A stretch of DNA of 4,704 nucleotides, from positions 1 through 4,704 of the IMG/VR virus record IMGVR_UViG_3300014919_000025; one strand, 5' to 3'. Source of the DNA: a virus (lineage: Duplodnaviria; Heunggongvirae; Uroviricota; Caudoviricetes). Positions 879 through 4,704 of the stretch are shown piece after piece; positions within the stretch are counted from its first letter, which is position 1, and every line of letters starts with the position of its first letter. Below the pieces are notes generated by a model. It did not search any database and was not told the DNA's origin. It saw only the letters and a program-made list of their open reading frames with translations. Both the position numbers and the translations under genes were made by a program.

Positions 879-1756
879 TTACGCCCCCTTACCTCTGAAG
901 GGTTCAGCGACAAATTTATGAGACTGGCCAGTAGCGCCGCGTCGTTGATGCGGTCATACAGACTTACAGCCAGCGGGGATTCGGCTTTTGCCAACATGGG
1001 ATAAAGCTGCTGCAGCCAGACCTTGTGGATTACCGACAGGTGGGAGTAAAGCACGCTGGCGTTATCTGCGGCATCGCTCAGCGTGGATGGCTTTGAAAGC
1101 AGTTTTTCCATCTGGTTAAAGGCATTGATGTATGCCTCTTTGAACCGGGCAGCACGTTTACCCGTGAAACCCATAGCAAGAAACGCAAAACCGTCTCGTG
1201 TGATTTGATAGCAAAGGAGCTTGCGTGTACCACCGTTCGGTTGATTTACCGAAATCGATGTCTCCGCAAAATTGCGGGCACAAAACTCAGGGGAACAATC
1301 CAGAGTGCGGATCTTTTTCAGCACATCGTCGTGACGCTTGGAGAAGAAGTTGGCAACAGCCAAAGAAGTGGTAACGGCCTGGCCGTTGTCAATGGTGATT
1401 TCAGGTTGAGTGAGGGCTGGGATCGTAGCCATGATGGCAGCCTCCGTTGACAGTGAAAAACTTCCACCACCGGAAACGCCAATTTCACTGGTGGTGAACT
1501 GGACGGGGTTGGCGTAACCGGCGTCAACGGAGACCGGCGCACCTTTCGGTGCCCCCGCCCAGCCCACCATAATCTGGATGTGAGCAAATGCGGACGATAA
1601 AAAAGACGCTGGCGCGTCATACATCGCCGTTGACAATTTCAGGACGCCAATCCCGGCACCCGCTTTATAAGGTGCCTGAACAGTGTAACGTCCCGGAATT
1701 GCAGAATCAATATGCTGGTGGCGATTGGTAAACAGTTTGAAAATATTCCGGATCAT
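875..1756 (-). CDS. Rha-family phage regulatory protein, copy A. The full ORF is 293 aa; the Rha domain is the C-terminal 185 aa (875-1432) and has its own SD+ATG
   Basis: Rha hallmarks are present: FFSKRHDDVLKKIRTL and YQITRDGFAFLAMGFTGKRAARFKEAYINAFNQMEK. An internal start ATG at 1432-1430 is preceded by GGAGG (1441-1445 on plus) with an 8-nt spacer. The ORF is also open upstream to an ATG at 1756 that overlaps the copy-B stop (ATGA 1753-1756). Which start is used cannot be decided from sequence alone. Confidence 0.6.
   Translation of the reverse strand: MIRNIFKLFTNRHQHIDSAIPGRYTVQAPYKAGAGIGVLKLSTAMYDAPASFLSSAFAHIQIMVGWAGAPKGAPVSVDAGYANPVQFTTSEIGVSGGGSFSLSTEAAIMATIPALTQPEITIDNGQAVTTSLAVANFFSKRHDDVLKKIRTLDCSPEFCARNFAETSISVNQPNGGTRKLLCYQITRDGFAFLAMGFTGKRAARFKEAYINAFNQMEKLLSKPSTLSDAADNASVLYSHLSVIHKVWLQQLYPMLAKAESPLAVSLYDRINDAALLASLINLSLNPSEVRGRK
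1599..1618 (-). terminator. Terminator-like hairpin plus U-run inside the leader of Rha copy A (possible attenuator)
   Basis: On the minus strand, GACGC-gcca-GCGTC (plus 1605-1618) is followed directly by UUUUUU (plus 1604-1599). The stem is only 5 bp and the element lies within an open reading frame, so confidence is low. Confidence 0.3.
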
Positions 1757-2898
1757 TTACGCCCCCTTACCTCTGAAGGATTCAGCGACAAATTTATGAG
1801 GCAGGCCAGCGCCGAAGCATCATTAATATAGTCATACAAGCTAACAGCCAGCGGAGATTCGGCTTTTGCCAACATAGGATAAAGCTGCTGCAGCCAGACC
1901 TGATGAATTGATGAAATGTAGGAATAGAGAACGCTGGCGTTATGTGCAACGTCGCTCAGTACAGAGGGATTTGAAAGCTGTTTCTCCATCTGGTTAAAGG
2001 CATTGATGTATGCCTCTTTGAACCGGGCAGCACGTTTCCCCGTGAAGCCCATGGCAAGAAACGCAAAACCGTCGCGGGTGATTTGGTAACAAGGGAGTTT
2101 GCGGCCTGTGCAATCGGTGTAATCACTGGGCTGAAAATTCAGCTCAGTGAATTCAACAGAGCACTCAAGCGTCTGGATTTTTTGAATAACGTTTTTGTGC
2201 TGCTTGCAGAAATATTCGGCAACGGCCAAAGAAGAGGTAACAGCCTTCCCATGGATAACATCAATTTTAGGGTGAGTTTGGGTAGGGGTGGTTGCCATAG
2301 TGACATCCTCATGTGCGAATTTTGAAAACTCACCACATGGGACGCCAATCACAGAGGTGGTGAGACGTACAGGGTTGGCGTAACCGGTCGCACATGACCC
2401 CGGCGCATCTTTCGATGCCCCTGCACGCCCCACCATAATTTGGATGTGAGGAAACGTGCGCAAAAAAACCGCTGAAGCGCGGTTATGCGCATGTGCGAAT
2501 TTCAGGACGCCAATCCCGGCACCCGCTTTATAAGGTGCCTGAACAGTGTAACGTCCCGGAATTGCAGAATCAATATGCTGGTGGTCCTTCACACTCAACA
2601 AAATCACGCCTGAATTTCCACAAAGGACTAAAGCACTCATGCGGGTAGTCTTTGCGAAGATAGATAACGCGCTGTGTTTCTGGCTCCCAACGAATAACAT
2701 GGACATAAAGCCCTCTTCCGTCACGAAACCAGCGGTTAAGTTCCTGCACAACTCGCCCCCCACAGTCAGGTAAAGTTCTCTGTGGTTACTTACAGCCAGG
2801 TGATTTGGTAATCTGCATTCATGCCGTAACAACAGGTGTTCAGCGACGCTGACCACCAGCTGTTGCGACAAACGGTTATTTGCCGTTAAACTATTCAT
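1753..2898 (-). CDS. Rha-family phage regulatory protein, copy B, as a composite 381-aa ORF: a Cys/His-containing N-terminal region of about 105 aa, a leader of about 95 aa, and a Rha domain (1753-2298, 181 aa) with its own SD+ATG
   Basis: Rha motifs are present: YFCKQHKNVIQKIQTL and the identical core YQITRDGFAFLAMGFTGKRAARFKEAYINAFNQMEK. The internal ATG at 2298-2296 is preceded by GAGGA (2306-2310 on plus) with a 7-nt spacer. The ATG at 2898 overlaps the stop of the upstream 185-aa gene (ATGA 2895-2898). There is no in-frame stop between 2898 and the Rha domain. Confidence 0.55.
   Translation of the reverse strand: MNSLTANNRLSQQLVVSVAEHLLLRHECRLPNHLAVSNHRELYLTVGGELCRNLTAGFVTEEGFMSMLFVGSQKHSALSIFAKTTRMSALVLCGNSGVILLSVKDHQHIDSAIPGRYTVQAPYKAGAGIGVLKFAHAHNRASAVFLRTFPHIQIMVGRAGASKDAPGSCATGYANPVRLTTSVIGVPCGEFSKFAHEDVTMATTPTQTHPKIDVIHGKAVTSSLAVAEYFCKQHKNVIQKIQTLECSVEFTELNFQPSDYTDCTGRKLPCYQITRDGFAFLAMGFTGKRAARFKEAYINAFNQMEKQLSNPSVLSDVAHNASVLYSYISSIHQVWLQQLYPMLAKAESPLAVSLYDYINDASALACLINLSLNPSEVRGRK
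2462..2484 (-). terminator. Terminator-like hairpin plus U-run inside the leader of Rha copy B (possible attenuator)
   Basis: On the minus strand, AACCGC-gcuuca-GCGGUU (plus 2467-2484) sits next to a run of seven U (plus 2468-2462). It is at the position equivalent to the copy-A element but with a different stem sequence. Confidence 0.3.
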
Positions 2899-3452
2899 GC
2901 GTTAGTTTCTCCACAACCAGAAGCAATCGACGCCACGACGCCCGGAGCTGCACACTCGCGGGCGTTACTCTTTTCTGGAGCGCAGAAGATTTTGTAGACC
3001 AGTGCTGCATGCTCCTGGAGCTTCGAAATTGAAAGATACAGTTCGTCGTTAATTGCTGTCTTCTCATGCGGTTCCACTACACCGTCTTCGATTGCTGAAC
3101 GAATCTGTCTGGAATAACTGCCGATCTGTTCAATGACTTCCAGCAGGCGCTGGTTTATATCGGCGTTCTCTACTGCCTCAATTTCAGGAAGCGATACGAA
3201 CACCCCACCAGCAGACTGTGCGACAGCATCCGCAATGTAGTGAGTGCCAGCCGCACGCTGTAAAACCATTGCCCATCCCAGCGGGAAAATCTGATCGCCA
3301 TCTGCACGAAGGCGGTTGAATAATGCGTTCTCTGTTACATCCAGCCACTCAGCAGCTTCAGCGTAACCCCCCGGCAACGCCGCGATAGTTTTTCTGACAG
3401 CTTTCACGTACCACTCAGGCTGTTTTTCCACTTTCCAGTGATGATTACCCAC
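2895..3452 (-). CDS. Hypothetical regulatory protein at the cII position of the operon (185 aa), possibly CII/YdaT-like
   Basis: ORF-track ORF with a GTG start at 3452, preceded by AGGAGG (revcomp of 3460-3465) with a 7-nt spacer. The start overlaps the cro-like stop by 8 nt. The functional call rests on position only and is a weak inference. Confidence 0.55.
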   Translation of the reverse strand: MGNHHWKVEKQPEWYVKAVRKTIAALPGGYAEAAEWLDVTENALFNRLRADGDQIFPLGWAMVLQRAAGTHYIADAVAQSAGGVFVSLPEIEAVENADINQRLLEVIEQIGSYSRQIRSAIEDGVVEPHEKTAINDELYLSISKLQEHAALVYKIFCAPEKSNARECAAPGVVASIASGCGETNA

Positions 3453-3705
3453 GGCTTACCTCCTGTTCCTGTGGTTTAAACCCATTCTGGTTTTGGCTAG
3501 ATTGAAAACGTGCCGGATAAAGAATCTGCATTTCGCTGATTTCACCCTTAAAAAAATTGGCCAGACGTTCTGCAAGATCGATAGATGGAATTTGTTCCAG
3601 CCTTTCAATACGACTCAGCGTCGCTGGATTGACCTGAACGCCAGCAGCAACATGCTGCAAAGTAAATCCGTGCGCCTTACGCACACTCCGTAATGGTGAT
3701 TGCAT
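3445..3705 (-). CDS. Cro-like XRE-family HTH transcriptional regulator (86 aa)
   Basis: Small HTH protein (GFTLQHVAAGVQVNPATLSRIERLEQIPSIDLAERLANFF) transcribed divergently from the repressor gene. GGAGGT lies immediately upstream of the ATG (revcomp of 3709-3714). It is the first gene of the minus-strand operon. Confidence 0.7.
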   Translation of the reverse strand: MQSPLRSVRKAHGFTLQHVAAGVQVNPATLSRIERLEQIPSIDLAERLANFFKGEISEMQILYPARFQSSQNQNGFKPQEQEVSRG

Positions 3706-3802
3706 ATGACCTCCACATATTGCGTGATGAGCATATTATTTCACGCAAATATTTTGCGCAAGTTGATTTGCTTAACGCGCAATAAAGAAATGTAATAAAC
3801 GC
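3706..3802. promoter_or_regulatory. Divergent promoter/operator region between the cro-like and cI-like genes (OR-like)
   Basis: A 97-bp AT-rich intergenic region carries several related dyad half-sites. These are TTGCGTGA (3720-3727), CGCAA-N5-TTGCG (3744-3758), the palindrome TTGCGCAA (3754-3761) and TTGCT-N5-CGCAA (3768-3782). A candidate minus-strand promoter for cro has -35 TTGCGC (3756-3761) and -10 TAATAT (3733-3738) with a 17-bp spacer. A candidate plus-strand -10 TAATAA (3793-3798) sits just upstream of the repressor ATG. Confidence 0.55.
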
Positions 3803-4495
3803 ATGAACATAGGAAACCGAGTCAGACAACTTCGCCAGGCGAAGAACATGAAAATCGCCGATCTCGCTGAAGCAATAGGAGTGGATGCGGCGAATATCTC
3901 ACGCCTGGAAACAGGTAAGCAGAAACAATTCACTGAACAAGCCCTGAGTAATATTGCCAGGAGCTTAGGTGTTGATATCGCTGATCTCTTTACCTCAGAC
4001 GTCAAAAGTAATACTGTATGTAAAAACAGTATTGGTGAGGATGTTGCGCAGGTGAAGGATGTATTCCGTATTGAAATGCTGGATGTCAGTGCCAGTGCGG
4101 GAAATGGCCTTATCCAGGGCGGTGATGTCATTGATGTGATTCATGCCATTGAATACAGAACTGATAATGCTGTATCGATGTTTGGCGGACGGCCAGCCAA
4201 TCACATTAAAGTTATCAACGTTCGTGGGGACAGTATGTGTCCAACCATTGAGCCAGGAGATCTCATCTTCGTTGATATCAGTATCAATCAGTTTGATGGG
4301 GATGGTATATATGTATTTGGTTTTGATGATAAAATTTACGTCAAACGACTGCAAATGATACCTGATAAACTGCTGGTAATTTCTGATAATCAGATTTACC
4401 GCGAATGGGGAATTACCAGCGAAAACGAACATCGGTTTATGGTCTTTGGAAAGGTCTTAATCAGTCAGTCACAAACCCTTAAGCGACACAATTAA
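3803..4495 (+). CDS. cI-like prophage repressor (230 aa): N-terminal XRE-type HTH plus C-terminal LexA/S24-type autopeptidase domain
   Basis: The N-terminus NIGNRVRQLRQAKNMKIADLAEAIGVDAANISRLETGK is a canonical HTH. The C-terminal domain has the nucleophile in VRGDSM (Ser144) and the general base in YVKRL (Lys181), spaced 37 residues apart as in LexA. A candidate Ala-Gly cleavage site is SASA-GNG (Ala99-Gly100). Confidence 0.85.
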   Translation: MNIGNRVRQLRQAKNMKIADLAEAIGVDAANISRLETGKQKQFTEQALSNIARSLGVDIADLFTSDVKSNTVCKNSIGEDVAQVKDVFRIEMLDVSASAGNGLIQGGDVIDVIHAIEYRTDNAVSMFGGRPANHIKVINVRGDSMCPTIEPGDLIFVDISINQFDGDGIYVFGFDDKIYVKRLQMIPDKLLVISDNQIYREWGITSENEHRFMVFGKVLISQSQTLKRHN

Positions 4496-4515
4496 CCCCT
4501 ACCTCAACATCAATT

Positions 4516-4537
4516 AGCCACCAGAAGGTGGCTTTTC
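4516..4537 (+). terminator. Rho-independent terminator downstream of the repressor gene
   Basis: AGCCACC-agaa-GGTGGCT is a perfect 7-bp stem with a 4-nt loop, followed by TTTT, starting 21 nt after the repressor stop. Confidence 0.55.
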
Positions 4538-4550
4538 ATTACCCACCAAA

Positions 4551-4603
4551 TTGCATATCTCGCAATAAAAACACTTGCATAATGCGCAACTTCATTTTAT
4601 CTT
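4551..4603 (+). promoter_or_regulatory. Second operator-like cluster with a possible plus-strand promoter (OL/PL-like)
   Basis: Two 15-bp sites, TTGCATATCTCGCAA (4551-4565) and TTGCATAATGCGCAA (4575-4589), fit the TTGCG-N5-CGCAA dyad seen in the cI/cro intergenic region. A possible -35 TTGCAT (4575-4580) and -10 TATCTT (4598-4603) have a 17-bp spacer. Promoter direction and function are inferred. Confidence 0.35.
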
Positions 4604-4704
4604 TCTTTCCAGACATACAAACAAGGTACTAACAAAATTTGGTTGTAACACGGCGTATGGCACATGCGTCGTTAGCGGTCTGGTGACGTTAAAGGGGACA
4701 ATCC

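What the first reader, a model, noticed from the sequence alone, without database searches (positions are those of the whole stretch)
3706..3802. Operator family built on the dyad TTGCG-N5-CGCAA between the repressor and cro genes
The sites CGCAA-atatt-TTGCG (3744-3758), TTGCGCAA (3754-3761), TTGCT-taacg-CGCAA (3768-3782) and TTGCGTGA (3720-3727) overlap the candidate -35/-10 elements of both divergent promoters. Such an arrangement fits a lambdoid genetic switch with multiple operators of graded affinity.
Basis: seen in the sequence. Interest (0 to 1): 0.4.

Follow-up and report, generated by a model that had tools for sequence, protein, structure and literature searches.

The report
Repressor operators of a lambdoid prophage switch
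This is the ordinary on/off control region of a very common E. coli lambda-like prophage: repressor-binding sites of the form TTGCG-N5-CGCAA sit on the promoters beside the repressor gene.

Summary
The window is the immunity region of an E. coli lambdoid prophage (98.9% identical to phage mEp460; the same family as SfII, Stx2a_1447 and ST64B). Only 3768-3782 is a full copy of the stated dyad. TTGCGTGA is the left part of a second, degenerate copy at 3720-3734. CGCAA-N5-TTGCG (3744-3758) has the half-sites turned inside out. TTGCGCAA (3754-3761) is an invariant palindrome that most likely serves as the -35 element of the cro promoter.

I collected 121 distinct homologous intergenic regions from 25 repressor clusters. 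Their consensus operator is TTTGCGTAATACGCAAA. A matrix trained only on relatives finds exactly four sites in the window. Two are in OR (3720-34 and 3768-82). These same four sites are the top hits in the whole 44.5-kb mEp460 genome.

The conserved promoter elements fit PR, a leaderless PRM and PL, each with a TTGC half-site as its -35. About half of the related clusters carry a correctly oriented third OR site. The window's clade has the inside-out pair instead, together with a weakened left operator, and I could not explain this.

This is a new member of a known kind, of low to moderate interest.

The parts
3803..4495 (+). cI-like repressor gene (230 aa): an N-terminal XRE/434-type helix-turn-helix domain plus a C-terminal S24 (LexA-like) autopeptidase domain
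   Evidence: Pfam HTH_3 (1e-10) and Peptidase_S24 (6e-19). PHROG 4 and 6201, CI-like repressor. Ala99-Gly100, Ser144 and Lys181 are invariant in relatives. Residues 1-15 are conserved, so the ATG at 3803 is the start.
3445..3705 (-). cro-like gene (86 aa, HTH_3), preceded by the Shine-Dalgarno sequence GGAGG (3711-3715, - strand)
   Evidence: Pfam HTH_3 6e-10. PHROG 3. It is orthologous in nearly all related loci, and the recognition helix xxLSR(I/V)ER is conserved.
3720..3734 (.). O-left (OR1-like position): TTGCGTGATGAGCAT. This is a degenerate copy of the dyad that overlaps the last 2 bp of the inferred PR -10 and the inferred PR start.
   Evidence: Matrix score 15.3, third best in the window. 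The family consensus at this position is TTGCGTATTACGCAT. The arms are conserved and the spacer varies across 25 clusters.
3733..3738 (-). Inferred PR -10 hexamer, TAATAT (TAACAT in the SfII-type relatives)
   Evidence: Conserved as TAAYAT, 17 nt from the invariant TTGCGC, in nearly all 121 sequences (rare point variants). This is an inference; no transcription start data exist.
3744..3748 (.). Extra CGCAA half-site.
   Evidence: It is present in all 30 distinct sequences of the window's cluster, with a hypervariable 5-nt spacer at 3749-3753. It is also present in 6 of 15 sequences of the L333 cluster and absent elsewhere. It is mutually exclusive with a correctly oriented partner at 3747-3751, and it is associated with loss of the C at 3730.
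3754..3763 (.). The 10-mer TTGCGCAAGT. Its palindromic core TTGCGCAA holds both half-site orientations. On the - strand, TTGCGC (3761-3756) is the inferred PR -35.
   Evidence: TGCGCAAGT is invariant in all 121 distinct sequences, and the first T is A only in the L215 cluster. It lies 17 nt from the conserved TAAYAT. In 12 of 25 clusters its CGCAA half pairs with a TTGCG-like pentamer 5 nt upstream, forming a third operator. In the window that partner is AAATA, which scores no better than random sequence.
3768..3782 (.). O-right (OR3-like position): TTGCTTAACGCGCAA. This is a full dyad covering the -35 and part of the spacer of the inferred PRM.
   Evidence: It is an exact match to TTGCN6CGCAA and has the best matrix score in the window, 16.8. 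TTGC and CGCAA are conserved in the representatives of all 25 clusters, with rare point variants in single sequences, and the spacer varies.
3768..3796 (+). Inferred PRM: -35 TTGCTT (3768-3773), a 17-nt spacer, and -10 TGTAAT (3791-3796). The start would fall on the A of the cI ATG (3803), giving a leaderless cI mRNA.
   Evidence: TGTAAT is conserved 6-7 nt before the ATG in 24 of 25 clusters (TTAAAT in the L333 cluster). There is no Shine-Dalgarno sequence before cI. This is an inference by analogy with lambda PRM.
4516..4533 (+). Rho-independent terminator after cI: a stem-loop followed by a T run
   Evidence: Terminator scan. It is annotated as a terminator at the equivalent place in SfII.
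4551..4565 (.). OL distal operator: TTGCATATCTCGCAA
   Evidence: Exact pattern match. Matrix score 16.7 with a model trained only on OR sites of other phages. Sites in this position occur in 22 of 25 clusters.
4575..4589 (.). OL proximal operator: TTGCATAATGCGCAA. Its left half is the -35 of the inferred PL.
   Evidence: Exact pattern match. Matrix score 14.3. It is spaced 22-24 bp from the distal site across clusters.
4575..4603 (+). Inferred PL: -35 TTGCAT (4575-4580), a 17-nt spacer, and -10 TATCTT (4598-4603), reading rightwards into the early-left genes
   Evidence: The arrangement TTGCxx-17 nt-TATCTT (or a close variant) is conserved in most clusters. This is an inference.

Best explanation
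The interval is the right operator region (OR) of a lambdoid immunity module.

What binds. Dimers of the cI-like repressor recognise a 15-17-bp dyad, T-TTGCG-N5-CGCAA-A (family consensus TTTGCGTAATACGCAAA). The small Cro-like protein very probably recognises it too, because its recognition helix has the same SR(I/L)E core.

Sites in the window. There are four full copies.
- O-left (3720-3734) lies over the -10 and start of the cro promoter PR.
- O-right (3768-3782) lies over the -35 and spacer of the repressor promoter PRM.
- Two OL sites (4551-4565 and 4575-4589) lie behind the cI terminator. The proximal one covers the -35 of PL.

Promoters. Each of the three promoters uses a TTGC half-site as its -35 hexamer. 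The central invariant TTGCGCAA is primarily the PR -35. It also offers one half-site in each orientation. In about half of the related phages it completes a weak third operator. In the window it does not.

Inferred logic. Repressor on O-left and OL shuts off PR and PL. Repressor or Cro on O-right shuts off PRM. SOS-induced self-cleavage of the S24 domain releases the lytic promoters. The cI mRNA made from PRM is leaderless.

Shown here: the motif statistics, the conservation pattern, the positions, and the protein domains. Inferred: who binds, the promoter assignments, the order of occupancy, and any cooperativity.
For: - Gene content: HTH_3+S24 cI, HTH_3 cro, a CII-like gene, all divergently arranged.
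- Identity: the window is 95.7-98.9% identical to the phages mEp460 and Stx2a_1447 and 90% identical to SfII.
- Motif statistics: exact TTGCN6CGCAA occurs 4 times against 0.07 expected. The half-site pentamers are enriched in the intergenic region (P = 4e-5).
- Comparative set: 121 distinct homologous intergenic regions from 25 cI clusters keep the same 97-98-nt layout. The blocks TTGCG, (C)GCAT-TTA, TTGCGCAAGT, TTGC, CGCAA and TGTAAT are invariant or nearly so, and the dyad spacers vary.
- Independent detection: a matrix built positionally from the OR sites of the 24 other clusters gives the four named sites as the top hits in the window (14.3-16.8; the next is 8.5). The same four are the top hits in the whole mEp460 genome (the next is 10.0). 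The OL sites played no part in training.
- OL and PL: two OL sites followed by TTGCxx-17-TATCTT recur in 22 of 25 clusters.
- Proteins: the recognition helices of cI and Cro are conserved across all clusters, matching the invariant half-site.
- Specificity: HK022 cI shares only the C-terminal domain and has different operators, TGAAC-N6-GTTCA.
Against: - There are no binding or transcript data, so the operator and promoter assignments rest on sequence logic and analogy.
- The inferred PR and PRM -35 hexamers match TTGACA at only 3 of 6 positions, and the generic promoter scan did not report them.
- The canonical lambdoid OR has three operators. The window shows only two full ones.
- This model does not explain the everted CGCAA-N5-TTGCG, whose arms are conserved and whose spacer is hypervariable within the clade. 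It also does not explain that motif's association with a degenerate O-left.
- BLASTP finds no direct alignment between the cI N-terminal domain and Cro. Shared specificity is inferred only from their common Pfam register.
Confidence: 0.8

Rival explanations
1. The centre of OR is a true third operator in this clade. A repressor (or Cro) dimer would bind the everted pair CGCAA-N5-TTGCG (3744-3758) tail-to-tail through flexibly tethered DNA-binding domains, in phase (24 bp) with O-left and O-right. This would give a three-operator OR.
For: - Within the window's cluster (30 distinct sequences) both arms are invariant, while the 5-nt spacer is a variation hot spot, just as for O-left and O-right. 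At least 12 spacer variants appear with fixed arms (the arms were fixed by that search).
- The centre, 3751, is 24 bp from both neighbouring operator centres, which equals the OL site spacing in the window.
- The everted pair is mutually exclusive with the correctly oriented third site of sister lineages.
- It co-occurs with relaxed constraint at O-left position 3730: all four bases appear there, against C in 73 of 75 sequences elsewhere.
Against: - The orientation is inverted relative to every other site of the family (matrix score -55).
- The left arm is absent from 23 of 25 clusters.
- No change in the cI or Cro recognition helices accompanies it.
- In the L333 cluster the two haplotypes also differ in neighbouring cro codons, so the associations may reflect one or two recombination blocks rather than selection.
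- On its own the motif is not statistically unusual.
Confidence: 0.13
2. The TTGC/GCAA repeats are promoter elements only: three -35 hexamers plus fortuitous symmetry. The repressor would bind some other, unrecognised sequence.
For: Each inferred promoter does use TTGCxx as its -35. The generic scan finds no other strong dyads.
Against: - The CGCAA partner is kept at exactly N5 in all four sites and in 25 clusters, while the bases in between vary. A -35 hexamer does not require that.
- O-left has no -35 role, yet it keeps both arms.
- A matrix trained on OR finds OL independently.
Confidence: 0.03
3. The sites are bound by another regulator instead of cI and Cro. Candidates are a host LacI/PurR-type protein on CGCAA...TTGCG, or the phage CII-like activator on TTGC repeats.
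For: From my own knowledge: PurR boxes contain CGCAA-ACGT-TTGCG, and lambda CII recognises TTGC-N6-TTGC. Both resemble these sequences superficially.
Against: - The spacing here is N5 with an AT-rich centre and no central CG.
- TTGC direct repeats are 13-14 nt apart, not 10.
- The CII-like protein belongs to PF06892 (the 186-CII/YmfL type), not the lambda CII family.
- The sites track the immunity cassette. e14-type prophages with a different cI/cro share only the flanks.
Confidence: 0.03

Closest known systems
Bacteriophage lambda OR/OL-CI-Cro genetic switch
   Same: - Divergent cI (HTH plus a LexA-like self-cleaving domain) and cro genes.
- Dyad operators that overlap PR and PRM, and a second operator cluster at PL downstream of cI.
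- The inferred PRM start coincides with the cI ATG (a leaderless mRNA).
- The PR and PRM starts are about 78 bp apart (82 bp in lambda, from my own knowledge).
- A CII-like activator gene follows cro.
   Different: - The operator is 15-17 bp, TTGCG-N5-CGCAA, not lambda's 17-mer TATCACCGCCAGTGGTA type.
- The DNA-binding domain is of the XRE/434 type.
- The window has only two full operators in OR and two in OL, where lambda has three and three.
- The PRM-proximal site covers -35 to -21 rather than about -27 to -11.
- The CII-like protein is of the PF06892 (186-CII/YmfL) family.
Phage 434 and P22 repressor/Cro systems (XRE-type HTH repressors)
   Same: The helix-turn-helix fold class is the same: the best PDB sequence match to the N-terminal domain is a 434-repressor derivative. 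The dyad is short, with conserved outer arms and a variable, AT-rich centre. Cro is also an HTH_3 protein.
   Different: The half-site sequence differs (434 uses ACAA, from my own knowledge). The number and spacing of sites differ. No solved structure or biochemical study of this specificity group was found.
HK022 CI
   Same: The C-terminal oligomerisation and cleavage domain is homologous (43% identity over residues 19-228). HK022 is also a lambdoid phage, with cI and cro divergently arranged.
   Different: The N-terminal domain differs, and so do the operators (TGAAC-N6-GTTCA in the HK022 intergenic region). This shows that the operator sequence tracks the DNA-binding domain.
Phages that carry this same immunity family: mEp460, SfII, Stx2a_1447/WGPS2, 1720a-02, ST64B, Eeyore, Kp4873-4
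   Same: They have the same cI/cro/cII-like cassette and the same operator layout.
   Different: None of the records I inspected annotates operators or promoters here. mEp460 and Stx2a_1447 annotate cI from an internal Met. I found no paper that describes the sites.

Membership tests
Lambdoid CI/Cro immunity switch | Divergently transcribed repressor gene (HTH plus S24 self-cleaving domain) and small cro-type HTH gene, separated by a short intergenic region | tested here: met
   The ORFs are at 3803-4495(+) and 3445-3705(-), 97 nt apart. Pfam HTH_3+Peptidase_S24 for cI and HTH_3 for cro. PHROG CI-like repressor.
Lambdoid CI/Cro immunity switch | LexA-type autocleavage determinants: an Ala-Gly bond and a Ser/Lys dyad | tested here: met
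   A99-G100, S144 and K181 are invariant in the alignment of 8 relatives at 67-96% identity. Cleavage itself was not tested.
Lambdoid CI/Cro immunity switch | Repeated dyad-symmetric operators in the intergenic region that overlap the divergent promoters | tested here: met
   Two full dyads at 3720-34 and 3768-82. The arms are conserved and the spacers vary across 25 clusters. They overlap the conserved TAAYAT (-10) and TTGCTT (-35) elements.
Lambdoid CI/Cro immunity switch | Three operators in OR, as in lambda, 434 and P22 | tested here: inconclusive
   A correctly oriented third site is present in 12 of 25 related clusters but is at random-sequence level in the window. The window has an everted pair there instead.
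Lambdoid CI/Cro immunity switch | A second operator cluster (OL) at the early-left promoter, on the far side of cI | tested here: met
   Sites at 4551-65 and 4575-89 follow the terminator at 4516-33. They were found by a matrix trained only on OR sites. The arrangement, with TTGCxx-17-TATCTT, is conserved in 22 of 25 clusters.
Lambdoid CI/Cro immunity switch | The operator sequence co-varies with the repressor's DNA-binding domain (immunity specificity) | tested here: met
   The recognition helix and the half-site are both invariant in 25 clusters. HK022 has a homologous C-terminal domain but a different N-terminal domain and different operators. e14-type cassettes share only the flanks. This is a coarse test only.
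Lambdoid CI/Cro immunity switch | Physical binding of CI and Cro to the same operators, with differential affinity and cooperativity | not testable with these tools
   This needs EMSA or footprinting. Matrix scores (14.3-16.8) are not affinities.
Lambdoid CI/Cro immunity switch | Leaderless cI transcript from PRM | tested here: inconclusive
   TGTAAT lies 6-7 nt before the ATG in 24 of 25 clusters (TTAAAT in L333), and there is no Shine-Dalgarno sequence. No transcript 5' end data exist.
PurR/LacI-type operator (considered for the everted CGCAA...TTGCG) | A 16-bp palindrome in which CGCAA and TTGCG are separated by 4 bp that contain a central CpG (from my own knowledge) | tested here: not met
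   The window has CGCAA-ATATT-TTGCG: a 5-bp AT-only spacer with no central CG.

The most novel reading that the evidence does not exclude
The OR of this repressor family may come in two interchangeable designs built around one invariant palindrome, TTGCGCAA.
- Design 1: a head-to-head third operator (TAGCG/TTACG-N5-CGCAA) that uses the right half of the palindrome.
- Design 2, in the window's clade: a tail-to-tail pair (CGCAA-N5-TTGCG) that uses the left half, coupled to a weakened O-left.

If both designs work, the repressor (or Cro) tolerates opposite half-site orientations, or it binds 'one-and-a-half' operators such as TTGCG-N19-CGCAA. That would be unusual for lambdoid CI proteins.
Probability: 0.12. 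Interest if true: 0.5.

Novelty: new member of a known kind. Interest (0 to 1): 0.25.

Why it matters
This immunity type is common. At least 80% of the 1.3-kb region is present in 1,040 of 5,426 complete E. coli genomes. It also occurs in serotype-converting Shigella phage SfII, Salmonella phage ST64B and some Stx2a-converting phages. A preprint reports that the CI type of Stx2 phages correlates with induction efficiency and toxin output, and it gives no molecular explanation (10.1101/2024.03.06.583675).

Operator and promoter coordinates make several things directly testable for this group: superinfection immunity, induction thresholds and reporter design. They also correct the cI start that is mis-annotated in some records. 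Conceptually this is a textbook lambdoid switch, so the gain is one of annotation. The one exception is the unexplained central element.

Tried and rejected
- Literature searches for mEp460, SfII, ST64B, Stx-phage operators and the string TTGCGCAA found no description of these sites.
- The promoter scan's only hit in the interval is TCCACA-16-TATTAT on the + strand (3712-3739). I rejected it because its -35 falls on the complement of the cro Shine-Dalgarno sequence and is not conserved in relatives.
- An alternative third site in register B (3754-3768, TTGCG-CAAGT-TGATT) would be centred at -42 from PRM, like lambda OR2. Its right half exceeds the random 95th percentile in only 1 of 25 clusters, and it overlaps O-right by 1 bp. 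I did not adopt it.
- PurR-type and lambda-CII-type readings were rejected on spacing.
- BLASTP of the cI N-terminal domain against Cro gave no alignment.
- The exact pattern match at 2099-2113 inside the Rha gene, and the dyad GTGCG-CCTTA-CGCAC inside cro (3670-84), score low (6.3 and 5.2). I treat them as coding coincidences.
- The region right of PL (4600-4704) does not fold better than shuffled sequence (z = -1.2) and holds no tRNA.
- An alignment-based scan of viral contigs returned only near-identical loci. Diversity came from querying with the diverged relatives.

Full report
WHAT THE WINDOW IS

The 4.7-kb window is the early regulatory region of an E. coli lambdoid prophage. Bases 3400-4704 are 98.9% identical to phage mEp460, 95.7% to Stx2a-converting phages Stx2a_1447 and WGPS2, and 90% to Shigella phage SfII. 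At least 80% of this stretch is present in 1,040 of 5,426 complete E. coli genomes.

The genes are as follows:
- a cI-like repressor (3803-4495, +; HTH_3 plus Peptidase_S24);
- a Cro-like protein (3445-3705, -; HTH_3);
- a CII-like regulator (2895-3452, -; PF06892);
- two Ash/Rha paralogues;
- a DnaD/O-like replication gene.

The finding concerns the 97-nt cro-cI intergenic region, 3706-3802.

CHECKING THE OBSERVATION

All four strings are at the stated coordinates. The family is real. Exact TTGCN6CGCAA occurs four times in the window against 0.07 expected, and three of the four flank cI. Five of the 20 TTGCG/CGCAA pentamers in the window fall in the 97-nt intergenic region (P = 4e-5).

The four listed items are not equivalent:
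- 3768-3782 is a full dyad.
- TTGCGTGA is the left end of a 15-bp degenerate dyad, TTGCGTGATGAGCAT (3720-3734; 2 mismatches).
- CGCAA-N5-TTGCG has the half-sites back to back, which is a different geometry. It is not unusual on its own.
- TTGCGCAA is two overlapping half-sites.

They are 24 bp apart and lie just behind a terminator at 4516-4533.

COMPARATIVE EVIDENCE

I collected relatives from one-genome-per-species contigs, viral contigs and GenBank phages. Parsing them gave 121 distinct cro-cI intergenic sequences belonging to 25 repressor clusters at 90% identity. Their cI proteins are down to 67% identical to the window's cI.

The layout is fixed at 97-98 nt. These blocks are invariant or nearly so (window coordinates):
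- TTGCG (3720-24);
- (C)GCAT-TTA (3730-38);
- TTGCGCAAGT (3754-63);
- TTGC (3768-71);
- CGCAA (3778-82);
- TGTAAT (3791-96; TTAAAT in the L333 cluster), followed 6-7 nt later by the cI ATG.

The five bases inside each dyad vary freely. This is the footprint expected of a dimeric DNA-binding protein. The family consensus is the perfect 17-bp palindrome TTTGCGTAATACGCAAA.

I built a matrix positionally from the two OR sites of the 24 clusters other than the window's. It ranks 3768-82 (16.8), 4551-65 (16.7), 3720-34 (15.3) and 4575-89 (14.3) as the four best sites in the window, and the next scores 8.5. The same four are the top hits in the complete 44.5-kb mEp460 genome, where the next scores 10.0. 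The OL sites played no part in training, so this is an independent confirmation.

Downstream of cI, 22 of 25 clusters carry two such sites 22-24 bp apart. They are followed, 17 nt after the proximal TTGCxx, by TATCTT or a close variant.

PROMOTERS (INFERRED)

The conserved hexamers give three promoters that all use an operator half-site as their -35:
- PR on the - strand: TTGCGC (3761-3756), 17 nt, TAATAT (3738-3733).
- PRM on the + strand: TTGCTT (3768-3773), 17 nt, TGTAAT (3791-3796).
- PL on the + strand: TTGCAT (4575-4580), 17 nt, TATCTT (4598-4603).

The PRM -10 ends 6 nt before the cI ATG, and cI has no Shine-Dalgarno sequence, whereas cro has GGAGG. The cI mRNA is therefore probably leaderless, as in lambda.

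With these assignments, O-left covers about -8 to +7 of PR. O-right covers -35 to -21 of PRM. The proximal OL site covers the -35 and spacer of PL.

The -35 hexamers match the consensus at only 3 of 6 positions, and the generic scan did not call these promoters. The assignments rest on conservation and spacing, not on transcript data.

WHO BINDS

The cI N-terminal domain is of the 434/XRE type. Its recognition helix, ANISRLETGKQK, is almost invariant in all clusters, as is the half-site. Cro aligns to the same Pfam model in the same register, and its helix xxLSR(I/V)ER shares the Ser-Arg-hydrophobic-Glu core. BLASTP finds no direct alignment between the two.

HK022 CI shares only the C-terminal domain (43% identity) and has unrelated operators. 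e14-type prophages with another cI/cro pair share only the flanks of this region. The operator therefore travels with this DNA-binding domain.

Ala-Gly, Ser and Lys of the LexA-type cleavage machinery are invariant, which fits SOS induction.

THE CENTRE OF OR

The central 10-mer TTGCGCAAGT is the most conserved element of the region. It contains the inferred PR -35, and it presents one half-site in each orientation.

In 12 of 25 clusters, a TTGCG-like pentamer (TAGCG or TTACG) lies 5 nt upstream of its CGCAA half. This makes a correctly oriented weak third operator. About 1.25 clusters would be expected to pass that threshold by chance. In the window the corresponding bases, AAATA, score exactly like random sequence.

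This arm is present in all 30 distinct sequences of the window's cluster and in 6 of 15 sequences of one other cluster. It is absent elsewhere.

Three features of the everted pair are notable:
- Its 5-nt spacer is a variation hot spot.
- It is mutually exclusive with the correctly oriented partner.
- It goes with loss of constraint at O-left position 3730. In 30 everted-type sequences the base there is A 12 times, T 15, G 1 and C 2. In 75 other sequences it is C 73 times.

No change in the cI or Cro recognition helices accompanies it. In the second cluster the two haplotypes also differ in neighbouring cro codons, so linkage through one or two recombination blocks may explain the associations.

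My conclusion is that the window has two full OR operators plus a central element of unresolved status. I give the everted pair about a 13% chance of being a functional operator.

COMPARISON WITH KNOWN SYSTEMS AND NOVELTY

Functionally and architecturally this is a lambda-type switch: cI/cro divergence, OR and OL, a probably leaderless PRM, a self-cleaving repressor and a CII-like gene. It differs from lambda in four ways:
- the operator sequence;
- the 434-type DNA-binding domain;
- the number of full sites in the window (2 + 2);
- the family of its CII-like protein.

None of the database records I inspected annotates operators here. I found no paper that describes them. That library does not hold the original ST64B paper, and the SfV and SfII genome papers did not surface in my searches, so prior description cannot be excluded.

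I classify this as a new member of a known kind, of low to moderate interest. Its practical value lies in annotating a very widespread immunity group that includes some Stx2a phages.

Noticed in passing
window 1487-1688 and 2353-2551 (- strand): There are two tandem copies of a P1 immI-like RNA module: isrK (RF01394, 62 bits) at 2462-2538 and 1599-1675, C4 antisense RNA (RF01695, 75-81 bits) at 2353-2440 and 1487-1574, and weak c4 a1/b1 target hits. They lie inside the two long 'Ash+Rha' ORFs. mEp460 has a single Rha gene here, so the window carries a tandem duplication of an isrK-C4-antirepressor cassette. The Pfam 'Ash' hits of the two ORFs overlap these RNA genes.
   Followed up: partly
window 3803 vs 3848: The mEp460 and Stx2a_1447 records start cI at an internal Met (215 aa). 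SfII uses the ATG at the position equivalent to 3803 (230 aa). Residues 1-15 are conserved in relatives and belong to the HTH_3 match, so the long form is correct.
   Followed up: yes
window 4637-4697: A 60-nt stretch right of PL is 97-98% identical to unannotated DNA on E. coli plasmids of about 90-100 kb. In one of them it lies directly after a tRNA-Ile gene within a cluster of tRNA genes and upstream of a Tad2 anti-Thoeris gene. It contains no tRNA and no significant fold.
   Followed up: partly
window 3400-3480 and about 4590-4704: e14-type prophages (ymfK/ymfT) match only the two flanks of the immunity region: the ymfL 5' end and the region right of OL (12-13% of the query, 93-95% identity). 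This shows modular exchange of the whole cI-OR-cro-OL cassette (hits H34-H37).
   Followed up: no
window 3730 together with 3744-3748: Across relatives, the presence of CGCAA at 3744-48 goes with loss of the consensus C at O-left position 3730. All four bases are seen there, against C in 73 of 75 other sequences. It also excludes the correctly oriented third site. I could not tell whether this is compensation or linkage.
   Followed up: partly
window 3670-3684: A perfect dyad, GTGCG-CCTTA-CGCAC, lies inside the cro coding region, 21 nt downstream of the cro start codon. Its matrix score is low (5.2). In relatives the same codons (Leu/Val-Arg-Lys) often spell TTGCG or CGCAA. It is probably a coding coincidence.
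   Followed up: partly
window 2099-2113: TTGCACAGGCCGCAA (- strand) inside the larger Rha-type ORF is a fourth exact match to TTGCN6CGCAA. Its matrix score is only 6.3, and its centre is GC-rich, unlike the real sites. I treat it as chance.
   Followed up: partly
window 3718-3784: There is a 32-nt imperfect inverted repeat (72% complementary) centred on 3751, and a perfect 8-nt inverted repeat, TTGCGTGA/TCACGCAA, with a 13-nt gap. The mirror-image placement of the half-sites explains both. The whole OR of this clade reads TTGCG-N5-wGCAT-N9-CGCAA-N5-TTGCG-N9-TTGCw-N5-CGCAA.
   Followed up: yes
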